Position numbers and translations under genes: made by a program
Shown: positions 2,479-53,268 of the stretch, in pieces
How positions within the stretch are numbered: the stretch's first letter is position 1
How the letters are laid out: each line of letters begins with the position of its first letter
The notes under the pieces: model-generated
Databases searched by the model: none
Told to the model about the DNA's origin: nothing
Seen by the model: only the letters and a program-made list of their open reading frames with translations
DNA from: a virus
Virus record (IMG/VR): IMGVR_UViG_3300017774_005745
Coordinates: 132,808-196,807 of that record
Strand: one strand, 5' to 3'
Length of the DNA: 64,000 nucleotides

Positions 2479-2524
2479 TTCTTACCTCCCAAGTAGGGAA
2501 AGAGAAGTTTGATTACCTCTCAAA

Positions 2525-2770
2525 CTACTTATACTCGTGATTTGCGATGTTTTTGATGAATCGCGAACCACACGGAAGGCACATGTAGAAAGGACGATGA
2601 CCTGTCAGAGGATACATTCCTCCGTACATGGTGGGACTCCTTCCAGAGTACATCTGAATGTCTACTGAGATGTAGGGGTCTCGGACATGACGCTTTCCTT
2701 CGAGTCCTGGGACGTCGACGAACGTATCTACGAACTCCTTCTGACACACCGCACAGGTTCCCCCACTCAA
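2525..2770 (-). CDS. Small Cys-rich (CxxC...CxxC) protein
   Basis: ORF track. Confidence 0.5.
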   Translation of the reverse strand: MSGGTCAVCQKEFVDTFVDVPGLEGKRHVRDPYISVDIQMYSGRSPTMYGGMYPLTGHRPFYMCLPCGSRFIKNIANHEYK

Positions 2771-42210: not shown

Positions 42211-42213
42211 ATG

Positions 42214-42285
42214 TCGTAGGTGAGGGAGTCGAACCCACTCCATTCAGCTTATGAGACTGATGCTCGGTGCCACCGAGTACCTACG
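42214..42285 (-). tRNA. tRNA(CAT), atypical D-arm (Met or Ile2)
   Basis: Acceptor CGTAGGT/ACCTACG, loop CTCATAA, 1-nt acceptor-D linker. Confidence 0.7.
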
Positions 42286-45489: not shown

Positions 45490-45642
45490 CTGTCTTTGAG
45501 ACCGACGCTAAGACTTCCTTTTAGCTCTTAATCCCCACGCCTTATCATTGGGCCACTCGACCACATGGAGGTCGAGACCGGAATCAAACCAGTATCTTGG
45601 GGTGCATACGGAAGTAACTTAATTCGGAGTCTCGTTACACAG
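45490..45642 (-). ncRNA. Circularly permuted tRNA-like RNA #2 (YrlA-like)
   Basis: T-arm ACTGG-TTTGATT-CCGGT, acceptor hairpin CTCGACC-TCCATGT-GGTCGAG, D-arm, long closing stem. Confidence 0.75.
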
Positions 45643-45673
45643 AAAGCTTGAGCTTGGAGCTACACCCATGAGT

Positions 45674-45774
45674 GTCCAATACACGCTGCTTTGCCTCACC
45701 AGTTGGGCTACCTGGCCGTAATAGGCCAGGGGAAGAGTCGAACTTCCATCTTTAGCAGAGTGTGGTTAACGGAC
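45674..45774 (-). ncRNA. Circularly permuted tRNA-like RNA #1 (YrlA-like)
   Basis: T-arm GGAAG-TTCGACT-CTTCC, acceptor hairpin CCTGGCC-TATTAC-GGCCAGG, D-arm with GG, closing stem GTCCG/TGGAC. Confidence 0.75.
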
Positions 45775-45776
45775 GT

Positions 45777-45840: not shown

Positions 45841-46578
45841 TCAGGGAGCAAAGATGAGTTCGACGATGACACCAGTCGCAGCATCGACAACATCTGCCTG
45901 GTTTGCCTCTTCACGAGCAACCTTGACCGCTCGTTGCATCTTCTCGACTCTCTCCTGGAGCTGCTTCTTCCTGTCTGCTGGAATGGCTCCGGAGAAGTGA
46001 ATGGTCTTCCACGTCCCGACTGTGATGTCTTCGGTGACCTTGACCGTCTGTGCTGGGTGTTCCTTGGTCGGTGGAACGATGACTTTGTAGTCTTCCACCT
46101 TCTTGGTCTTGATGGTCTCCACAGGCTCAGAGCGGTACAACCCCTGTCCTTCATCGAACTGCCACACGGTATCCTGAGGAAGCGTGGGGAGCTTGCCGAT
46201 GAACTCTGCGATGGAGACGAGCTTCTTCTCCAGCCACAGCAGGTGGGTCGCAGGGATGTCCTTTGCGAGAATCTGTCCATCGACAGTGATGTCTGCCACT
46301 GCCGAGCAGTTCGTGGAGTCCTTGACCGCCGTGATGTTGAAGATTTCCTTCATCAGCGCGACAGTCGTGGAGATAGCTTCCTCCACCTTGACCGTGACTT
46401 TCTTCGACTCAGACGGGAGCTTCTCTCCGCTGTCGTCCTTCGGCTGGTACGTGCGAGAGAGACCGATGACCAGCTCGGGCTTCTGCACGTTGCGGTAGAG
46501 TTCCGTGAACTGGTCCTCCCGCTTTCCCTTGACCGTCTTCTCGATGGCCAGGATTTGGTTCAGCTTCTTGCCAGCCAT
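45841..46578 (-). CDS. Conserved protein, DUF7873-like (KLNQI.A.EK...SRTYQP.D..GE.LP.E)
   Basis: Family recalled from bacterial genomes; not searched. Confidence 0.75.
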   Translation of the reverse strand: MAGKKLNQILAIEKTVKGKREDQFTELYRNVQKPELVIGLSRTYQPKDDSGEKLPSESKKVTVKVEEAISTTVALMKEIFNITAVKDSTNCSAVADITVDGQILAKDIPATHLLWLEKKLVSIAEFIGKLPTLPQDTVWQFDEGQGLYRSEPVETIKTKKVEDYKVIVPPTKEHPAQTVKVTEDITVGTWKTIHFSGAIPADRKKQLQERVEKMQRAVKVAREEANQADVVDAATGVIVELIFAP

Positions 46579-47141: not shown

Positions 47142-48137
47142 TCAATCTCGGATCTTCAGAATCCGTTGAACGAGAATCGCTTTACCGCCAGGAATCTTTG
47201 AAGCACCGATGATGTCGAGACCTTTGCCTGCGTACTTTCGAAGGTCTTCGATGGACTGCGACATGAGTTGTTCGAAGCTCATGTTGTCGAACTTCTTCCA
47301 ACCCTTCTTGGATTTTCTTGGAGGAGCACTTCCTGCGTCTGCTTCTTGGCTCTTCTCAGAGGAAGGTGAAGTGTCTTGCTCCTCGACTGCGTCTTTCATT
47401 GAGTCTCGTTCATCTTCGAACGACGTAGAAGGCAAAAGCTCATCGTTGTGGTTGCCAAGTACCTTATACCGACACACACGCATCTTTTGTTGACCTGCGT
47501 CATACGGAACGCAGACAACGTCAGCGGGGTCTACTTCACATACGACCATCCGTCCGCCGCTGTGGAAGCTCTTCGCATACGCAAGAGCTCCGACATGGAA
47601 CCCTTCGTGGCATGCGGTGTTGGGGTCGTCGGAGACTTTGTTACGGTCCATCTCCAGGATCGCACCGGGTTTGTTCACGAAGGTCCCAGAGTGGACATCT
47701 TTGTAGTCCGAGCGCACAGCCTTGTACGTAAGGAGCCTTCCCTCCTTCGTAAATGGAATCCCTCCGTGCTTCAAGAACTCCCAGAGCTGGTTTACGGAAC
47801 GGTATGAAGGATTCTTCTTCAGACGCTTCCAGAAGTTCAGCAGTGAGGAAGGGTCCTCGTTGTTCGTTGCCATCTCCTGAATCCGCTGGTTGAGGGATTC
47901 TGGGATTTTCTCATCACCGAGGTAGAACTCGTTGTTCTTGACCTTGAAGTCTCCCTTTGCCCAAGACTCGATCGACTTCTTGAGGGAGAGGTGGTTAGGA
48001 ATGTCATCCCACTTCTCTTGGATAACTGCATTACGCAGTTGCAGGAAGTTGGCTGCTCCCTTCTTCACTGTGTGCGACTTTCCCTCCCAGATGACTGTTA
48101 TCGATTCCTTCGTCAGTGTGAACGGAGGAGCTTCCAT
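47142..48137 (-). CDS. rIIB: rIIB-like protein
   Basis: NPSYRSVNQLW.FL...T..G..L.YK.VR, D...AC..G.HVG, VV.VP.D...KMRVC.Y. Confidence 0.88.
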   Translation of the reverse strand: MEAPPFTLTKESITVIWEGKSHTVKKGAANFLQLRNAVIQEKWDDIPNHLSLKKSIESWAKGDFKVKNNEFYLGDEKIPESLNQRIQEMATNNEDPSSLLNFWKRLKKNPSYRSVNQLWEFLKHGGIPFTKEGRLLTYKAVRSDYKDVHSGTFVNKPGAILEMDRNKVSDDPNTACHEGFHVGALAYAKSFHSGGRMVVCEVDPADVVCVPYDAGQQKMRVCRYKVLGNHNDELLPSTSFEDERDSMKDAVEEQDTSPSSEKSQEADAGSAPPRKSKKGWKKFDNMSFEQLMSQSIEDLRKYAGKGLDIIGASKIPGGKAILVQRILKIRD

Positions 48138-50259
48138 TTTTGATCTCTTTTCTGAACTTCTCATCGATGAGATTGAAGTAATCGAGCCACTGGTCGGAGA
48201 ATCCGCCAGTCCAAAGCGAGTGAAGATTGCTCATCATTGCGAGGAGCGGATACTTGACTCTTATTGCGCGCCGTCTTGGGAGTACTTTCGACTCCCACAG
48301 CTTACTCGCTGTAACGTAGTCATAGAGACTCTTGATTCTATACTCATCTACGTCTTTTCTGACTTTCGGCGCAGCTACGGAGTCCTCCAGATACTTTCTG
48401 AGGATGTTGTCTTGGTTTAGTCTATTGATGAACTTCATCATGACCGACTTCTCGTTAGTGCCGAATCCTCTACCTATGCCAGCGTGATGCTCCCAATCCG
48501 CCTCATCAAGATGCGCAAGAGTCCTTGGGTCTTTGATGTCTGCTCGAACTGCCTTCTTCACCCACTCTTCCATGGGAATGCCGAGACCTGGAGTTGAGTA
48601 AGTTACGGGATTCTTCTCCGTCGTCTTGAACCCGTAGATAGTAGGCACCTCTCTACCAGTGATGATTGAGAGAGTTTGTAGAATGTTCAGCTCTTCTCTG
48701 AAGTGGCCGTACTGCCAGACTTCGAACTCCTTGATGATGACGAAAGGACTCGACGGCTTCGGGGGAACTTCAGCGGCTTCCCAGTTTCGAGACTTCGGGT
48801 GTCTCCACCCGCCTCTACCTACGAGTGTGAACGTCTTGAGACGGTGTTTCTCATTTACGACGGGACCGTTTGACCTCCTCGTAGAAACAGGTTTTTGCCA
48901 TGTCAAACTAGACGTCGTTGAGATGGGAATCCCGGTGAGACCGCTCTTCGCGAGCAGGTCGTCGAGTTCTTTTCGAACGTCACCCCACGGGGTCTTTGAG
49001 TCTTTTCGTACGACGATGTAGTCCCATCGGTTGAGGGTAAACCCCTTCAAAGAGCGATGGTCATCTCTCAGCAGTAGTCTGTTCTCTTGAGAGAGGTCTA
49101 CGTCTCGCTCCGCTATCTTCATGCGCGTGATTTCGAACGTCAGGGGAGTATCCTTGAGCGGGACTCTCTGCATGACGTACTGCTTCCAACCTACAGGGAC
49201 TGGGAGATTCATCTCTGCCAGGATTCTACACCGTACCAAACGCTCCCATGCAGACGTAGACGTCTTAGAGGCTGCGTCGATGGTCTTGGTGACGAATTCC
49301 TCGATGAGCTTCTCAAACTTCTCTATCAGCGCCTTCTTGGTGCTCTCTCCGTACTTCAGGCTCTCACGGGAGGCACTTATCTGAAGTTCTCCAATGTTGA
49401 AGTTGAGAACTCCTCCCATGCTCGACAGGAAGCTCGGGATTCCAACGGACGACCCAAAGCCACCGAGCTGCGCGAGGTCTATTGGATAGCCGATACATCC
49501 CATTCTCGCAATCCAAGTACCACGAGTGAACACCCACGCGCCCTTGTCCAGTTGAAGTTCCTTACCTGTGTAATACCCTCCATTGGAGCATGAGACGATG
49601 GCCCCATGTTCAGACTCTGACAGGGTGTCCATCTTCAGAGCTGGAATGCTGATGTTGATCTTCGGCTGCGGAAAGAAAAAAGCAAAGAGTCGCTTGGCCT
49701 TCTCGTAGAACTCTCCGATGTCCGAAGACTTCACTGCGATTTCAATCGTTACTCCAGTGCTCTCTCCGCACGGCTCTTCATGAAGAAGATTGATGACTCC
49801 CTTATCGGACTCATCGAGAACCGCTACATAGGTTCTCTTTACACCACCGTGAGACGAGATGACGGTGAAACTGTCCGAGTAGGCGAAGCCGCTCTTGGAG
49901 CCGATTCCCATCATTCCTACTGCAGAGTCACTGTCTCTCTTCGTGCTTGCTCCATACTGGGCAAAGACCTTGAAGATTCCTTCGGAGGAAAGGCCAGGCC
50001 CTTTGTCTTTGATTTGAAGGGTGGGCTTTGCGTGGGTGGGTAGTACGACCTCAATTGGCTCGTTCCCTCGACCTGCTTCCTTTTGGGCATCCCATGCGTT
50101 CGCACTGTACTCGCGAAGCACCGCCATGATTTTGTCCGAGTACAGTGTGTCTCGGAGAATCGTCATGATGTGCGCGGAGTCGTCGATAGAGATACCAAAC
50201 GACCCAGACGTCTTGACACCGCTCGTTGTGAGTGAGCGGTCCTTCGTATTTGGGATCAA
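48031..50259 (-). CDS. rIIA: rIIA-like protein with GHKL/HSP90-type ATPase domain
   Basis: LY.DKI.AVLREY.ANA.DA, I.D.G.GL, YG.STK, G..GIGSK; adjacent to rIIB. Confidence 0.9.
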   Translation of the reverse strand: MIPNTKDRSLTTSGVKTSGSFGISIDDSAHIMTILRDTLYSDKIMAVLREYSANAWDAQKEAGRGNEPIEVVLPTHAKPTLQIKDKGPGLSSEGIFKVFAQYGASTKRDSDSAVGMMGIGSKSGFAYSDSFTVISSHGGVKRTYVAVLDESDKGVINLLHEEPCGESTGVTIEIAVKSSDIGEFYEKAKRLFAFFFPQPKINISIPALKMDTLSESEHGAIVSCSNGGYYTGKELQLDKGAWVFTRGTWIARMGCIGYPIDLAQLGGFGSSVGIPSFLSSMGGVLNFNIGELQISASRESLKYGESTKKALIEKFEKLIEEFVTKTIDAASKTSTSAWERLVRCRILAEMNLPVPVGWKQYVMQRVPLKDTPLTFEITRMKIAERDVDLSQENRLLLRDDHRSLKGFTLNRWDYIVVRKDSKTPWGDVRKELDDLLAKSGLTGIPISTTSSLTWQKPVSTRRSNGPVVNEKHRLKTFTLVGRGGWRHPKSRNWEAAEVPPKPSSPFVIIKEFEVWQYGHFREELNILQTLSIITGREVPTIYGFKTTEKNPVTYSTPGLGIPMEEWVKKAVRADIKDPRTLAHLDEADWEHHAGIGRGFGTNEKSVMMKFINRLNQDNILRKYLEDSVAAPKVRKDVDEYRIKSLYDYVTASKLWESKVLPRRRAIRVKYPLLAMMSNLHSLWTGGFSDQWLDYFNLIDEKFRKEIKNGSSSVHTDEGIDNSHLGGKVAHSEEGSSQLPATA

Positions 50260-50290
50260 ACGGTTTCCTATTTCAAGAAGTAAATAAGAT

Positions 50291-50433
50291 GAAGTTCCGA
50301 GTGTACAACGCGTTCGTTTTATGAGGCTGCTGCTCTACCACTGAGCTACGTAGGTCAGGGACCTACGGCAGGATTCGAACCTGCGACCCGCAGCGTGACG
50401 TTTTGCGTGTGTGCGCTGTACTGCCGGAACTTC
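50291..50433 (-). ncRNA. Circularly permuted tRNA-like RNA #3, retains CTCATAA loop
   Basis: T-arm GCAGG-TTCGAAT-CCTGC, hairpin CGTAGGT-CCCTG-ACCTACG, D-arm GCTC-AGTGGTA-GAGC, closing stem GAAGTTCCG/CGGAACTTC. Confidence 0.85.
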
Positions 50434-50436
50434 AAG

Positions 50437-50509
50437 TGGACCTGGCCGGGATCGAACCGGCGACTTCCAGCTTGCAAAGCTGGCACTCTCCCAGCTGAGT
50501 TACAGGCCC
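50437..50509 (-). tRNA. tRNA-Ala(TGC)
   Basis: G3:U70 pair, loop TTTGCAA. Confidence 0.93.
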
Positions 50510-50859: not shown

Positions 50860-51276
50860 TTATACTTCAGACAGTCCAAGAAGCACAATCGGATTCTCTG
50901 TCGGGTTGAACTGCCACCGCCGCGTCTTGTACCCGGACTTGGCGGAAAGAGCAGCAATCATTCTAGCAGTTCCTGCTGGATTCCAACTATGGACGACGAC
51001 CATCTTGGGAAGTTGGTGAGCTTCCAACCACTCGGCGATGTAGAGAGCTACCTCGTACCCAGTCTCTTCGAGCACCGCCACGTTCCCAGTATCAGCGGAG
51101 CTGTAGTGGGCCTCCATGAGGTCGTGGTCCAAGAACACAACATCCCAAGGACCTTCGTCACGGAGTGCTGCTCTGGCCTGGTTCGCCGTGTAGACGTGCT
51201 TCACGTCATACTTGAAGAGATGGAACTTGAAGGATTCGTGCCGTCTGAGGTCGTCGTCAAGGACTAGGATCTTCAC
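50860..51276 (-). CDS. Cyclic-phosphate-processing receiver-like domain protein
   Basis: ILVLDDD..R, VFLDHDL, GYEVA, VVHSWNP.G..RM. Confidence 0.75.
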   Translation of the reverse strand: MKILVLDDDLRRHESFKFHLFKYDVKHVYTANQARAALRDEGPWDVVFLDHDLMEAHYSSADTGNVAVLEETGYEVALYIAEWLEAHQLPKMVVVHSWNPAGTARMIAALSAKSGYKTRRWQFNPTENPIVLLGLSEV

Positions 51277-51423
51277 TGGTGTCTCTCTTCTGAAAGAAGT
51301 CGCAATCTCCCTCACACATGACGTAAGGACCCATCCCTCCACCGGCCAGACCGTACCCGAAGATGGTGTTAGAACCACACTTAGGGCACACCGTGGGGAG
51401 TTCCACAACTGGTGCTTCGTCAC

Positions 51424-53114: not shown

Positions 53115-53268
53115 TGATCCACCCGAGTGAGCAATCCGTAGGTCTCTTTCGAGACGGCTTAATAGGCCGGTGCCTTACCAGTTAGGCTACCTCCTCATAT
53201 GTGAGGAGGGTTGGATTCGAACCAACATAAGACGATTGCGTGTGAGGACTGTTCGGCCGGGTGAATCA
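53115..53268 (-). ncRNA. Circularly permuted tRNA-like RNA #4, retains an anticodon arm (ATT)
   Basis: T-arm GTTGG-TTCGAAT-CCAAC, hairpin CCTCCTC-ACATAT-GAGGAGG, D-arm, CCGGC-CTATTAA-GCCGT, 12-bp closing stem. Confidence 0.85.

What the first reader, a model, noticed from the sequence alone, without database searches (positions are those of the whole stretch)
50291..50433. Permuted tRNA-like RNA that would give a perfect tRNA(CAT) if rejoined in the anticodon loop
Seen: the order is GCTGC-GGGTC-T-arm-CGTAGGT-CCCTG-ACCTACG-TA-D-arm-A-GCAGC-CTCATAA. Joining CTCATAA to GCTGC gives the canonical ACCTACG TA GCTC AGTGGTA GAGC A GCAGC CTCATAA GCTGC GGGTC GCAGG TTCGAAT CCTGC CGTAGGT. Both halves are held together by a long stem (GAAGTTCCG/CGGAACTTC, GTACAGCGC/GCGTTGTAC), and the element starts 3 nt after tRNA-Ala. 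Known: YrlA RNAs have this permutation but are described as lacking an anticodon; genuinely permuted tRNA genes matured by splicing, with a junction near 37/38, are known from red algae and archaea. Inference: this is either a YrlA recently derived from a tRNA, a decoy for anticodon nucleases, or a phage permuted tRNA matured by cleavage and ligation.
Basis: partly seen in the sequence, partly recalled or inferred. Interest (0 to 1): 0.88.

Follow-up and report, generated by a model that had tools for sequence, protein, structure and literature searches.

The report
Phage Y-RNA-like tRNA mimic, not tRNA
This 145-base phage RNA really is a tRNA shape written back to front on a long stem. Its two closest relatives carry a different "anticodon" and an over-long sealed acceptor end, so it is best read as a Y-RNA-like tRNA mimic and not as a working split tRNA-Met gene.

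Summary
Window 50290-50434 (minus strand), 2-3 nt after tRNA-Ala(UGC), folds as described, and the rejoined halves are called tRNA-Met(CAU) by ARAGORN.

The permuted-tRNA reading is not supported.
- Two true homologues, in 189-190 kb phages G009 and G007, keep the scaffold (stems plus unpaired linkers) at 92-95% identity. The tRNA-like core is only 60-66% identical and is kept by compensatory changes (13 of 41 pairs).
- Their 7-mer has A where E1 has U at anticodon position 36, so the "anticodon" is CAA, not CAU.
- Their acceptor hairpins are 8-9 bp, capped by GNRA tetraloops.
- The phage has three ordinary CAU tRNAs and no RtcB or Rnl2-type ligase.

Covariance models link E1 in both directions to YrlA-type Y RNAs that lie 1-3 kb from rsr (Ro60) genes in Streptomyces-type phages. 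E1's 7-mer aligns to their variable A-rich linker.

A paralogue in the same genome (E4, 53116-53267) has the same scaffold but is opened in the variable loop.

This phage and the two E1-homologue phages gave no TROVE or DUF2828 match, so the protein partner is unknown.

Verdict: a new variant of a known kind (an orphan YrlA-like tRNA mimic). Other windows of this scan have reported the same kind of element. Interest is moderate to low.

The parts
50436..50509 (-). tRNA-Ala(UGC) directly upstream. Processing of its 3' end would free the 5' end of E1.
   Evidence: ARAGORN; Rfam tRNA 66.7 bits. The homologue in G009 also follows a tRNA-Ala(UGC); the one in G007 follows a tRNA(CAU).
50290..50434 (-). 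E1, the whole element (145 nt): a Y-RNA-like scaffold carrying a circularly permuted tRNA mimic.
   Evidence: MFE fold, z = -5.6. The family model R2 scores 171.6 bits over positions 1-149, but E1 is one of the three sequences R2 was built from. Covariation.
50425..50434 (-). Outer stem, 5' strand (pairs with 50290-50299).
   Evidence: 10 pairs, 100% paired, 2 with changes on both sides (helix 1).
50290..50299 (-). Outer stem, 3' strand.
   Evidence: helix 1.
50413..50421 (-). Inner stem, 5' strand (contains ACAGC). Separated from the outer stem by the 3x3 internal loop GCA/ACU.
   Evidence: 9 pairs, 100% paired, 1 compensatory change (G-C to A-U) (helix 2).
50303..50311 (-). Inner stem, 3' strand.
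   Evidence: helix 2.
50395..50412 (-). 5' linker, 18 nt, nearly invariant in the family. May hold a 3-bp mini-hairpin.
   Evidence: Alignment A2; RNAalifold pairs 27-37, 28-36, 29-35. The same motif occurs in the paralogue E4.
50390..50394 (-). Anticodon-like stem, 3' strand (tRNA positions 39-43).
   Evidence: 5 pairs, 3 with changes on both sides (helix 3).
50368..50389 (-). Variable-loop equivalent (5 nt) and T-arm (5-bp stem, loop UUCGAAU).
   Evidence: helix 4 (2 compensatory pairs); Rfam YrlA local match.
50349..50367 (-). Acceptor-like hairpin: 7 bp (8 with the first and last loop bases) closed by a 5-nt loop.
   Evidence: helix 5 (5 pairs with changes on both sides). It is 8 bp with a GCAA loop in G009 and 9 bp with a GAAA loop in G007.
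50331..50348 (-). U8-A9, the D-arm and position 26.
   Evidence: Invariant in the family (helix 6); matches the YrlA and tRNA consensus.
50326..50330 (-). Anticodon-like stem, 5' strand (tRNA positions 27-31).
   Evidence: helix 3.
50319..50325 (-). The 7-mer CUCAUAA, the 'anticodon loop' of the finding.
   Evidence: It reads CUCAAAA in both close homologues. It aligns to the variable A-rich linker of rsr-linked phage YrlA RNAs.
50312..50318 (-). 3' linker, invariant in the family.
   Evidence: Alignment A2.
53116..53267 (-). E4, a paralogue on the same scaffold motifs. Its tRNA mimic is opened in the variable loop and keeps a whole anticodon arm.
   Evidence: R2 63.5 bits, E 4e-16, model positions 1-149. 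Its homologue in G001 has a covarying anticodon stem and a different loop triplet.

Best explanation
E1 is a small non-coding RNA of the YrlA / Y-RNA kind, encoded inside the phage's tRNA array.

Shown:
- It is a conserved, covarying structure with two parts. The first is a scaffold: two stacked stems, a 3x3 internal loop and two unpaired linkers. The second is a tRNA-shaped module whose acceptor end is sealed and whose chain enters and leaves through the anticodon stem.
- The scaffold is the sequence-conserved part. The tRNA module is conserved only in shape.

Inferred:
- It is transcribed with the tRNA array. No promoter or terminator match lies on its strand nearby.
- Its 5' end is freed by 3' processing of tRNA-Ala.
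- The scaffold is the binding platform for a protein partner. That partner could be a Ro60/Rsr-type ring protein of the unknown host or an unrecognised phage protein.
- The tRNA-shaped module engages tRNA-recognising enzymes or nucleases, as shown for bacterial YrlA (RNase P, CCA-adding enzyme, TruB and DusA; Chen et al. 2014, PMC4201824).
- The likely role is to redirect or buffer RNA surveillance, decay or tRNA-directed activities during infection.

The 7-mer that looks like the tRNA-Met anticodon loop is a one-base variant of a conserved linker. It is not a decoding anticodon.
For: Structure and covariation.

True homologues: G009 and G007 score 163-172 bits against R2, but both are training sequences of that model. 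They were first found with Rfam YrlA and recognised by fold and alignment.

Conservation pattern: scaffold 92-95% identical against core 60-66%, while rIIA proteins of these phages are about 40% identical.

Link to bona fide Y RNAs:
- A model built only from five rsr-linked Streptomyces-type phage YrlA RNAs finds E1 at 51.9 bits (E 3e-10), E4 at 45.6, G007 at 40.9 and G009 at 39.3. Tandem-tRNA background scores 26.
- The E1-family model finds those rsr-linked RNAs over its full length at 41-61 bits.
- These RNAs lie 1-3 kb from TROVE genes.
- Rfam YrlA gives E1 42.1 bits, more than it gives any of the rsr-linked phage RNAs (at most 37.8).

Against decoding:
- The anticodon is CAU in E1 and CAA in the homologues. 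The rejoined homologues would be class I 'tRNA-Leu' with 8-9 bp acceptors.
- E4's loop triplet also differs between close relatives.
- Three normal CAU tRNAs are present.
- No RtcB or Rnl2 ligase was found.
Against: - No Ro60-type gene was found in this genome: TROVE, DUF2828, DUF7788 and a direct search with the Ro60-like protein of phage G005 all gave nothing. TROVE and DUF2828 also gave nothing in G007 and G009.
- The published 5' Rsr motif GNCGAA(N)G is not present as such in E1. E1 has a GUUCCGG/CGGCAG variant.
- Both the Rfam model and the rsr-linked model align only E1's core and linkers, not its stems.
- The score is below Rfam's gathering threshold.
- The host is unknown, so a host Rsr cannot be checked.
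- No expression, end-mapping or binding data exist.
- The exact tRNA-Met loop, a perfect 7-bp acceptor and a second family (E1b) with the same 7-mer leave some room for a Met-specific function.
Confidence: 0.75

Rival explanations
1. Decoy or sponge. The scaffold displays a whole-tRNA mimic, including the anticodon-loop frame, to bait a host enzyme that attacks or modifies anticodon loops (an anticodon nuclease of a defence system, a VapC-type toxin, or a modification enzyme). This would protect real tRNAs, with E1 as the tRNA-Met-type bait.
For: - All members of the scaffold family keep C32-U33 and A37-A38 around a variable triplet: E1, G007 and G009, and E4 in G000 and G001 with a complete, covarying anticodon arm.
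- E1's anticodon stem plus loop plus variable loop equals that of a real viral tRNA-Met. It differs by one base from the resident tRNA(CAU) Met-a.
- The unrelated phages G003 and G005 carry a permuted element (E1b) with the same 7-mer and nearly the same stem strand.
- The element sits in a large tRNA array of the kind thought to counter tRNA-directed defence.
Against: - In E1 the loop is open: 14 and 18 unpaired nt flank the stem. It is therefore not a closed 7-nt anticodon loop.
- The triplet is not conserved between close homologues, which argues against a nuclease-specific bait.
- E1b was found with a pattern that required the 7-mer, so its existence is partly ascertainment.
- rsr-linked relatives have no U33 at this place.
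- No nuclease or host is known.
Confidence: 0.12
2. Genuine permuted tRNA-Met gene. The long stem brings the ends together. A nuclease trims after position 38 and before position 39, a ligase (host RtcB) circularises the RNA, and RNase P plus 3' trimming and CCA addition open the acceptor loop to give a working tRNA.
For: - The rejoined sequence is a textbook tRNA-Met(CAU) with all tertiary-pair positions canonical (sequence).
- The acceptor loop begins C-C-C, close to N73-CC.
- M. smegmatis YrlA is cut by RNase P and receives CCA (PMC4201824).
Against: - The closest homologues have CAA in place of CAU, and acceptor hairpins of 8-9 bp with GNRA loops.
- The segments that would be removed are the most conserved part of the element. 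That is the reverse of what is expected for spliced-out leader and trailer.
- There is no bulge-helix-bulge motif, and no splicing endonuclease is known in bacteria.
- No RtcB or Rnl2 in the phage.
- Three standard CAU tRNAs are present.
- The nearest relatives carry an 83-aa ORF at this spot instead of E1.
Confidence: 0.03
3. Cis-acting element of the downstream mRNA. A stable tRNA-like structure marks a processing site between the tRNA array and the next gene (rIIA here, a 209-aa ORF in G009) and protects the new 5' end of that mRNA.
For: - E1 ends 31 nt before the rIIA start. The G009 homologue ends 10 nt before an ORF start.
- No promoter or terminator match lies between the tRNA and the gene.
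Against: - In G007 no same-strand ORF of 60 aa or more begins within about 470 nt after the element.
- Relatives express rIIA without E1.
- The strong sequence conservation of unpaired linkers and the homology to trans-acting Y RNAs are not explained.
Confidence: 0.08
4. Inert relic: the junction of two tandem tRNA-Met genes whose outer halves were lost.
For: - Tandem tRNA genes give the same T-arm, acceptor, acceptor, D-arm order and many false hits.
- Origin of YrlA-like modules from tRNA dimers is plausible.
Against: - Compensatory changes occur in five of the six helices, and the scaffold is near-invariant across phages whose proteins are about 40% identical.
- No flanking tRNA halves are present.
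- Scores are far above the tandem-tRNA background.
Confidence: 0.02

Closest known systems
YrlA (Y RNA-like A; Rfam RF02553; Chen et al. 2014, PMC4201824), partner RNA of bacterial and mycobacteriophage Ro60/Rsr
   Same: - Long terminal stem holding both ends, and a large internal loop.
- A tRNA-like module in the order T-arm, closed acceptor hairpin, D-arm, attached through a short anticodon-like stem.
- Location in or near tRNA genes in phages.
- Reciprocal covariance-model matches to rsr-linked phage YrlA RNAs.
   Different: - No rsr or TROVE gene in this phage or in the two phages with true homologues.
- The scaffold sequence is its own, and Rfam aligns only the core.
- The GNCGAA(N)G motif is replaced by a variant.
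- The anticodon-like stem is a full 5 bp, followed by a 7-mer with the tRNA loop frame (CU-NNN-AA).
- Scores below Rfam's gathering cut-off.
Circularly permuted tRNA genes of Cyanidioschyzon merolae and some archaea (my own knowledge; reviewed in PMC4090602)
   Same: The 3' half lies upstream of the 5' half, a short linker closes the acceptor end, and the junction would fall next to position 37/38.
   Different: - No bulge-helix-bulge motif and no known bacterial splicing endonuclease.
- Anticodon and acceptor length are not conserved in homologues.
- The would-be removed flanks are the most conserved part.
Phage 'handle' RNAs (stem plus ACAGCAA) beside Ro60-like DUF2828-type proteins. These are reported only in earlier unchecked AI notes of this scan (for example e1-5665627, e1-5353745, e1-5641759).
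   Same: - Small RNAs in phage tRNA arrays, some carrying permuted tRNA mimics.
- E1b (G003, G005) has a terminal stem followed directly by ACAGCA, and its phage has a 600-aa DUF7788 / weak DUF2828 protein next to the tRNA array.
- E1 contains ACAGC in its inner stem.
   Different: - In E1 the ACAGC is base-paired (one adjoining compensatory pair) and lies 5 nt from the outer stem.
- No DUF2828 or DUF7788 protein in this genome.
- I had no consensus of that family to test against.

Membership tests
YrlA (RF02553) | tRNA-like module: T-arm, closed acceptor-like hairpin and D-arm in permuted order | tested here: met
   cmscan aligns model positions 23-85 at 42.1 bits, E 4e-8. The helices covary.
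YrlA (RF02553) | Score at or above Rfam's gathering threshold (69 bits) over the full model | tested here: not met
   42.1 bits, local match only. rsr-linked phage RNAs also fail, at 37.8 bits or less, so the threshold is not decisive for phage members.
YrlA (RF02553) | Encoded next to a Ro60/Rsr (TROVE) gene | tested here: not met
   No TROVE, DUF2828 or DUF7788 match, and no homologue of the G005 Ro60-like protein, in the complete 196.8-kb genome. G007 and G009 gave no TROVE or DUF2828 match.
YrlA (RF02553) | 5' motif GNCGAA(N0-1)G proposed to contact Rsr (PMC4201824) | tested here: inconclusive
   E1 has GUUCCGG followed by CAG. The 8-mer CGGCAGUA is shared with an rsr-linked RNA (L517), where it takes the place of the motif. 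The paralogue E4 has GCCGAA.
YrlA (RF02553) | Terminal stem pairing the 5' and 3' ends, with an internal loop | tested here: met
   19 pairs in two helices, 3 compensatory.
YrlA (RF02553) | Physical binding to Rsr/Ro60 | not testable with these tools
   The host is unknown and there are no binding data.
Permuted tRNA gene | Rejoined halves give a canonical cloverleaf | tested here: met
   ARAGORN calls tRNA-Met(cat). The rejoined homologues are also called tRNA, as Leu(caa).
Permuted tRNA gene | Anticodon and 7-bp acceptor stem conserved among orthologues | tested here: not met
   CAU versus CAA. Acceptor 7 bp versus 8-9 bp with GNRA loops.
Permuted tRNA gene | Bulge-helix-bulge or other recognisable processing motif at the leader/trailer junction | tested here: not met
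   The sequence shows 18-nt and 14-nt unpaired linkers and two 9-10 bp stems, with no 3-4-3 motif.
Permuted tRNA gene | Ligase and endonuclease available | tested here: inconclusive
   No RtcB or Rnl2-type ligase in the phage. The Rnl1 search had no positive control. The host is unknown.
Permuted tRNA gene | Junction-spanning or circular RNA | not testable with these tools
Tandem-tRNA remnant (pseudogene) | No selective constraint: no compensatory change, flanks decay | tested here: not met
   13 compensatory pairs; flanks 92-95% identical.

The most novel reading that the evidence does not exclude
The E1/E4 scaffold marks a Ro60-independent phage ribonucleoprotein 'handle' that displays complete tRNA mimics. 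These mimics are opened at different points and keep the anticodon-loop frame. They would act as bait for host anticodon-directed nucleases or tRNA enzymes. E1 would be the tRNA-Met-type bait, its anticodon arm and (flipped) acceptor helix matched to the phage's own tRNA(CAU) Met-a.
Probability: 0.1. Interest if true: 0.7.

Novelty: new variant of a known kind. Interest (0 to 1): 0.35.

Why it matters
It removes an attractive but unsupported claim, that of a bacterial-virus permuted tRNA gene.

It documents that large uncultured phages without any recognisable Ro60 gene still keep Y-RNA-like tRNA mimics. In these the scaffold and its unpaired linkers are the constrained part, not the tRNA shape.

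That points to an unidentified protein partner. It also gives a defined RNA (E1, its paralogue E4 and two orthologues) with which to fish for that partner.

If the bait reading were true, it would add an RNA-based counter-defence to the known role of phage tRNA arrays.

Tried and rejected
- Nearest relatives by rIIA: L025 and L026 have an 83-aa ORF instead of E1. The relative G001 ends before the locus.
After filtering for a complementary acceptor hairpin, the patterns that required the 7-mer left only E1b. The IMG/VR scan that did not require it also gave about twenty other permuted modules.
- Scaffold motif scan: only G007 and G009.
- Donor tRNA search with E1's T-arm and acceptor: no hit. 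The anticodon arm alone matched one real viral tRNA-Met.
- GenBank phages: only tRNA or core-module matches, with no scaffold homologue.
- A home-made 'stem + ACAGC' scan of the genome was too noisy. Two candidates folded no better than shuffles. Rejected.
- The Rnl1 search was uninformative because no control matched.
- PDB sequence searches with the DUF7873 and cREC_REC neighbours gave nothing useful.
- Paper searches found no description of permuted tRNAs in phages.

Full report
**What is there**

The window is the right-hand 64 kb of a complete 196,807-bp IMG/VR phage genome with terminal repeats. It carries 28 tRNA genes and a tmRNA, all on the minus strand.

The element, E1 (window 50290-50434, minus), begins 2-3 nt after tRNA-Ala(UGC). 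It ends 31 nt before the start of rIIA (48031-50259; PHROG and Pfam), which is followed by rIIB.

Read 5' to 3', its parts are:
- outer stem
- 3-nt internal-loop strand
- inner stem
- 18-nt linker
- 5-nt strand of an anticodon-like stem
- 5-nt variable loop
- T-arm
- acceptor hairpin closed by 5 nt
- U-A
- D-arm
- the other strand of the anticodon-like stem
- the 7-mer CUCAUAA
- 7-nt linker
- the return strands of the two stems

The fold is the MFE (z = -5.6). Rejoining the halves gives a sequence that ARAGORN calls tRNA-Met(cat).

**Is it a recent copy of a tRNA?**

No.
- The best identity of the rejoined sequence to any of the 28 resident tRNAs is 74%, which is the general tRNA background.
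- No viral contig holds its T-arm plus acceptor strand.
- One real tRNA-Met in an unrelated viral contig has the same anticodon arm and variable loop. That arm is therefore of a natural Met type.

**Relatives at the locus**

The two nearest relatives by rIIA (55-56% identity) have the same tRNA-Ala and rIIA. Between them lies an 83-aa ORF. E1 replaces that ORF, and only the ORF's last 14 nt or so remain (compared). E1 is thus a discrete cassette.

**True homologues**

Scanning 41 rIIA-related phage records with Rfam YrlA and folding the hits revealed two clear homologues, in G009 (188.6 kb) and G007 (190.3 kb). Each starts 1-2 nt after a tRNA: Ala(UGC) in G009 and a tRNA(CAU) in G007.

In the three-way alignment A2:
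- The scaffold is 92-95% identical.
- The tRNA-like core is 60-66% identical.
- rIIA proteins are only about 40% identical.
- Of 41 pairs, 98.3% of cells are standard pairs and 13 pairs have changes on both sides. None of 500 shuffles and no slid control comes near this.
- RNAalifold predicts the same helices.
- The anticodon-like stem covaries at three of its five pairs, so it is a real helix.

**What the homologues say about the 'anticodon'**

- The 7-mer is CUCAAAA in both homologues, against CUCAUAA in E1. This is one substitution, at anticodon position 36, in an otherwise invariant linker.
- Rejoined, the homologues are called tRNA-Leu(caa), yet they lack the long variable arm of bacterial tRNA-Leu (my own knowledge).
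- Their acceptor hairpins are 8 and 9 bp, each with one mismatch, and are capped by GCAA and GAAA tetraloops.
- The parts that a permuted-tRNA pathway would discard are the best conserved.
- The phage has three ordinary CAU tRNAs.
- The phage has no RtcB or Rnl2-type ligase.

**Link to Y RNAs**

- Rfam YrlA matches E1's core at 42.1 bits (E 4e-8). This is below the gathering score of 69.
- Nine related records encode a TROVE (Ro60/Rsr) protein 1-3 kb from their YrlA-like RNA. Some have lengths matching known Streptomyces phages. None of those RNAs scores above 37.8 bits either.
- Model R1, built only from five of those rsr-linked RNAs, finds E1 at 51.9 bits, E4 at 45.6, G007 at 40.9 and G009 at 39.3. 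Tandem tRNA junctions score 26.
- In that alignment E1's stem strand plus 7-mer lines up with the rsr-linked consensus stem strand plus an A-rich linker. The 7-mers there are CCUUUAA, CCUAAAA, CCAUAUU, CAUUAAA, CCUUAAA and CAUCUAA.
- Conversely, model R2, built from the E1 family, finds the rsr-linked RNAs over its whole length at 41-61 bits.

E1 is therefore homologous in architecture, and in part in sequence, to bona fide phage YrlA RNAs. Its 'anticodon loop' is the positional equivalent of their variable linker.

**Membership caveats**

- This genome gave no match to TROVE, DUF2828 or DUF7788, and none to the Ro60-like protein of phage G005.
- G007 and G009 gave no TROVE or DUF2828 match.
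- The published Rsr-contact motif GNCGAA(N)G (PMC4201824) appears in E1 only as a variant. E1 shares the 8-mer CGGCAGUA with one rsr-linked RNA at the motif's place.

I therefore file E1 as 'works like, and is related to, YrlA', an orphan variant. I do not file it as a demonstrated Rsr partner.

**Paralogues and the role of the scaffold**

R2 also hits window 53116-53267 (E4) at 63.5 bits over its full length. The shared letters are exactly the scaffold motifs.
- E4's tRNA mimic is opened in the variable loop instead, and it keeps a closed anticodon arm.
- In the close relative G001 that arm's stem covaries fully, and the loop triplet differs (AUU versus CUU).
- The same scaffold thus carries tRNA mimics in two different circular permutations. 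Together with the conservation pattern, this marks the scaffold as the constant, presumably protein-binding, part.
- All members keep the loop frame CU-NNN-AA. This keeps the bait/decoy idea alive, although the triplet itself is free.

**A second family with the same 7-mer**

A pattern scan that required CTCATAA found E1b in phages G002-G005 (about 186-190 kb, no rIIA homologue) and in one metagenome contig. It lies between tRNA-Phe and tRNA-Ser.
- It shares 5 of the 6 unforced bases before the 7-mer with E1.
- R1 scores it 53.4 bits over the full length.
- Its upstream stem strand has a central A-A mismatch.
- Its phage encodes a 600-aa DUF7788 / weak DUF2828 protein next to DUF7873 and the tRNA array.
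- Because the search forced the 7-mer, I treat the identity as only weak evidence for a Met-specific role.

**How it most likely works**

See Best explanation. Covariation and homology are shown. Co-transcription, end formation by tRNA processing, a protein partner on the scaffold and engagement of tRNA enzymes are inferred by analogy with YrlA.

**Earlier notes of this scan**

Other windows have repeatedly reported phage Y-like RNAs with permuted tRNA mimics, and a DUF7873-linked double tRNA-mimic RNA. I used these as leads only. The DUF2828 lead was tested here and is negative for this genome. The DUF7873 lead fits the E2/E3 pair at 45511-45776.

**Verdict**

The permuted-tRNA interpretation is not supported. 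The element is an orphan YrlA-like tRNA mimic with its own conserved scaffold. It is of moderate to low interest, with a small chance of a more interesting bait function.

Noticed in passing
window 53116-53267 (-): E4: a second RNA on the same scaffold motifs as E1, right after tRNA-His. Its tRNA mimic is opened in the variable loop and has a complete anticodon arm. It is conserved in relative G001 (L564 1501-1639) with a covarying stem and a different loop triplet.
   Followed up: partly
window 45511-45776 (-) and 45841-46578 (-): Two tandem YrlA-like permuted tRNA modules (E2 at 45659-45776, E3 at 45511-45614) lie directly downstream of a DUF7873 gene. They are conserved with compensatory changes in L025 and L026. 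Earlier notes of this scan describe the same DUF7873 plus double-tRNA-mimic pairing. E3's anticodon-like 7-mer loses U33 in L025.
   Followed up: partly
window 42213-42285 (-) versus 50349-50367 (-): Resident tRNA(CAU) 'Met-a' has the same two acceptor 7-mers as E1's hairpin, with the 5' and 3' roles swapped. Its anticodon arm differs from E1's by one base. Met-a is conserved in a relative that lacks E1 (L025 9603-9675). Unexplained.
   Followed up: partly
window 50260-50290 (-) versus L025 1386-1676: E1 occupies the place of an 83-aa Cys-rich ORF found between tRNA-Ala and rIIA in the two nearest relatives. Only the ORF's last 14 nt or so remain in this phage.
   Followed up: partly
window 50860-51423 (-): A 187-aa protein with a cREC_REC domain (cyclic-phosphate processing receiver; Pfam E 3e-13) lies about 350 nt upstream of tRNA-Ala. 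This domain name points to RNA-repair systems, yet no RtcB or Rnl2 ligase was found in the genome.
   Followed up: no
L442 11980-12066 and 12269-12352 (phage G005): Two CAU tRNAs of 87 and 84 nt have long extra arms. In the first, the extra arm is a hairpin whose loop repeats the Met anticodon-loop letters.
   Followed up: no
L442 7770-9572 and 9575-10366 (phage G005): A 600-aa DUF7788 / weak DUF2828 protein (a candidate hidden Ro60-like protein) is followed directly by a DUF7873 gene and then the tRNA array that holds E1b.
   Followed up: partly
L024 557-703 (-) (Microbacterium phage BAjuniper): Between tRNA-Pro and tRNA-Asn lies an unannotated chain of tRNA-like pieces: T-arm, closed acceptor with CCA in its loop, D-arm, then a second T-arm, acceptor and D-arm.
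   Followed up: no
L023 about 2480-2620 (-) (Xanthomonas phage 10KY502B): An unannotated YrlA-like element has a T-arm, D-arm and variable loop identical to E1's, but a 4-bp anticodon-like stem followed by a run of A. The record is a 43-kb phage.
   Followed up: no
G029 (125,726 bp; same length as Streptomyces phage Annadreamy), L507 1485-1618: This record carries a YrlA-like RNA with the GNCGAA motif but gave no TROVE match, whereas its sister records do.
   Followed up: no
L021 16236-16307 (relative G001): ARAGORN calls a 72-nt tRNA with anticodon UCA (labelled SeC), a possible opal-suppressor-type tRNA. It is absent from the window's own tRNA list.
   Followed up: no
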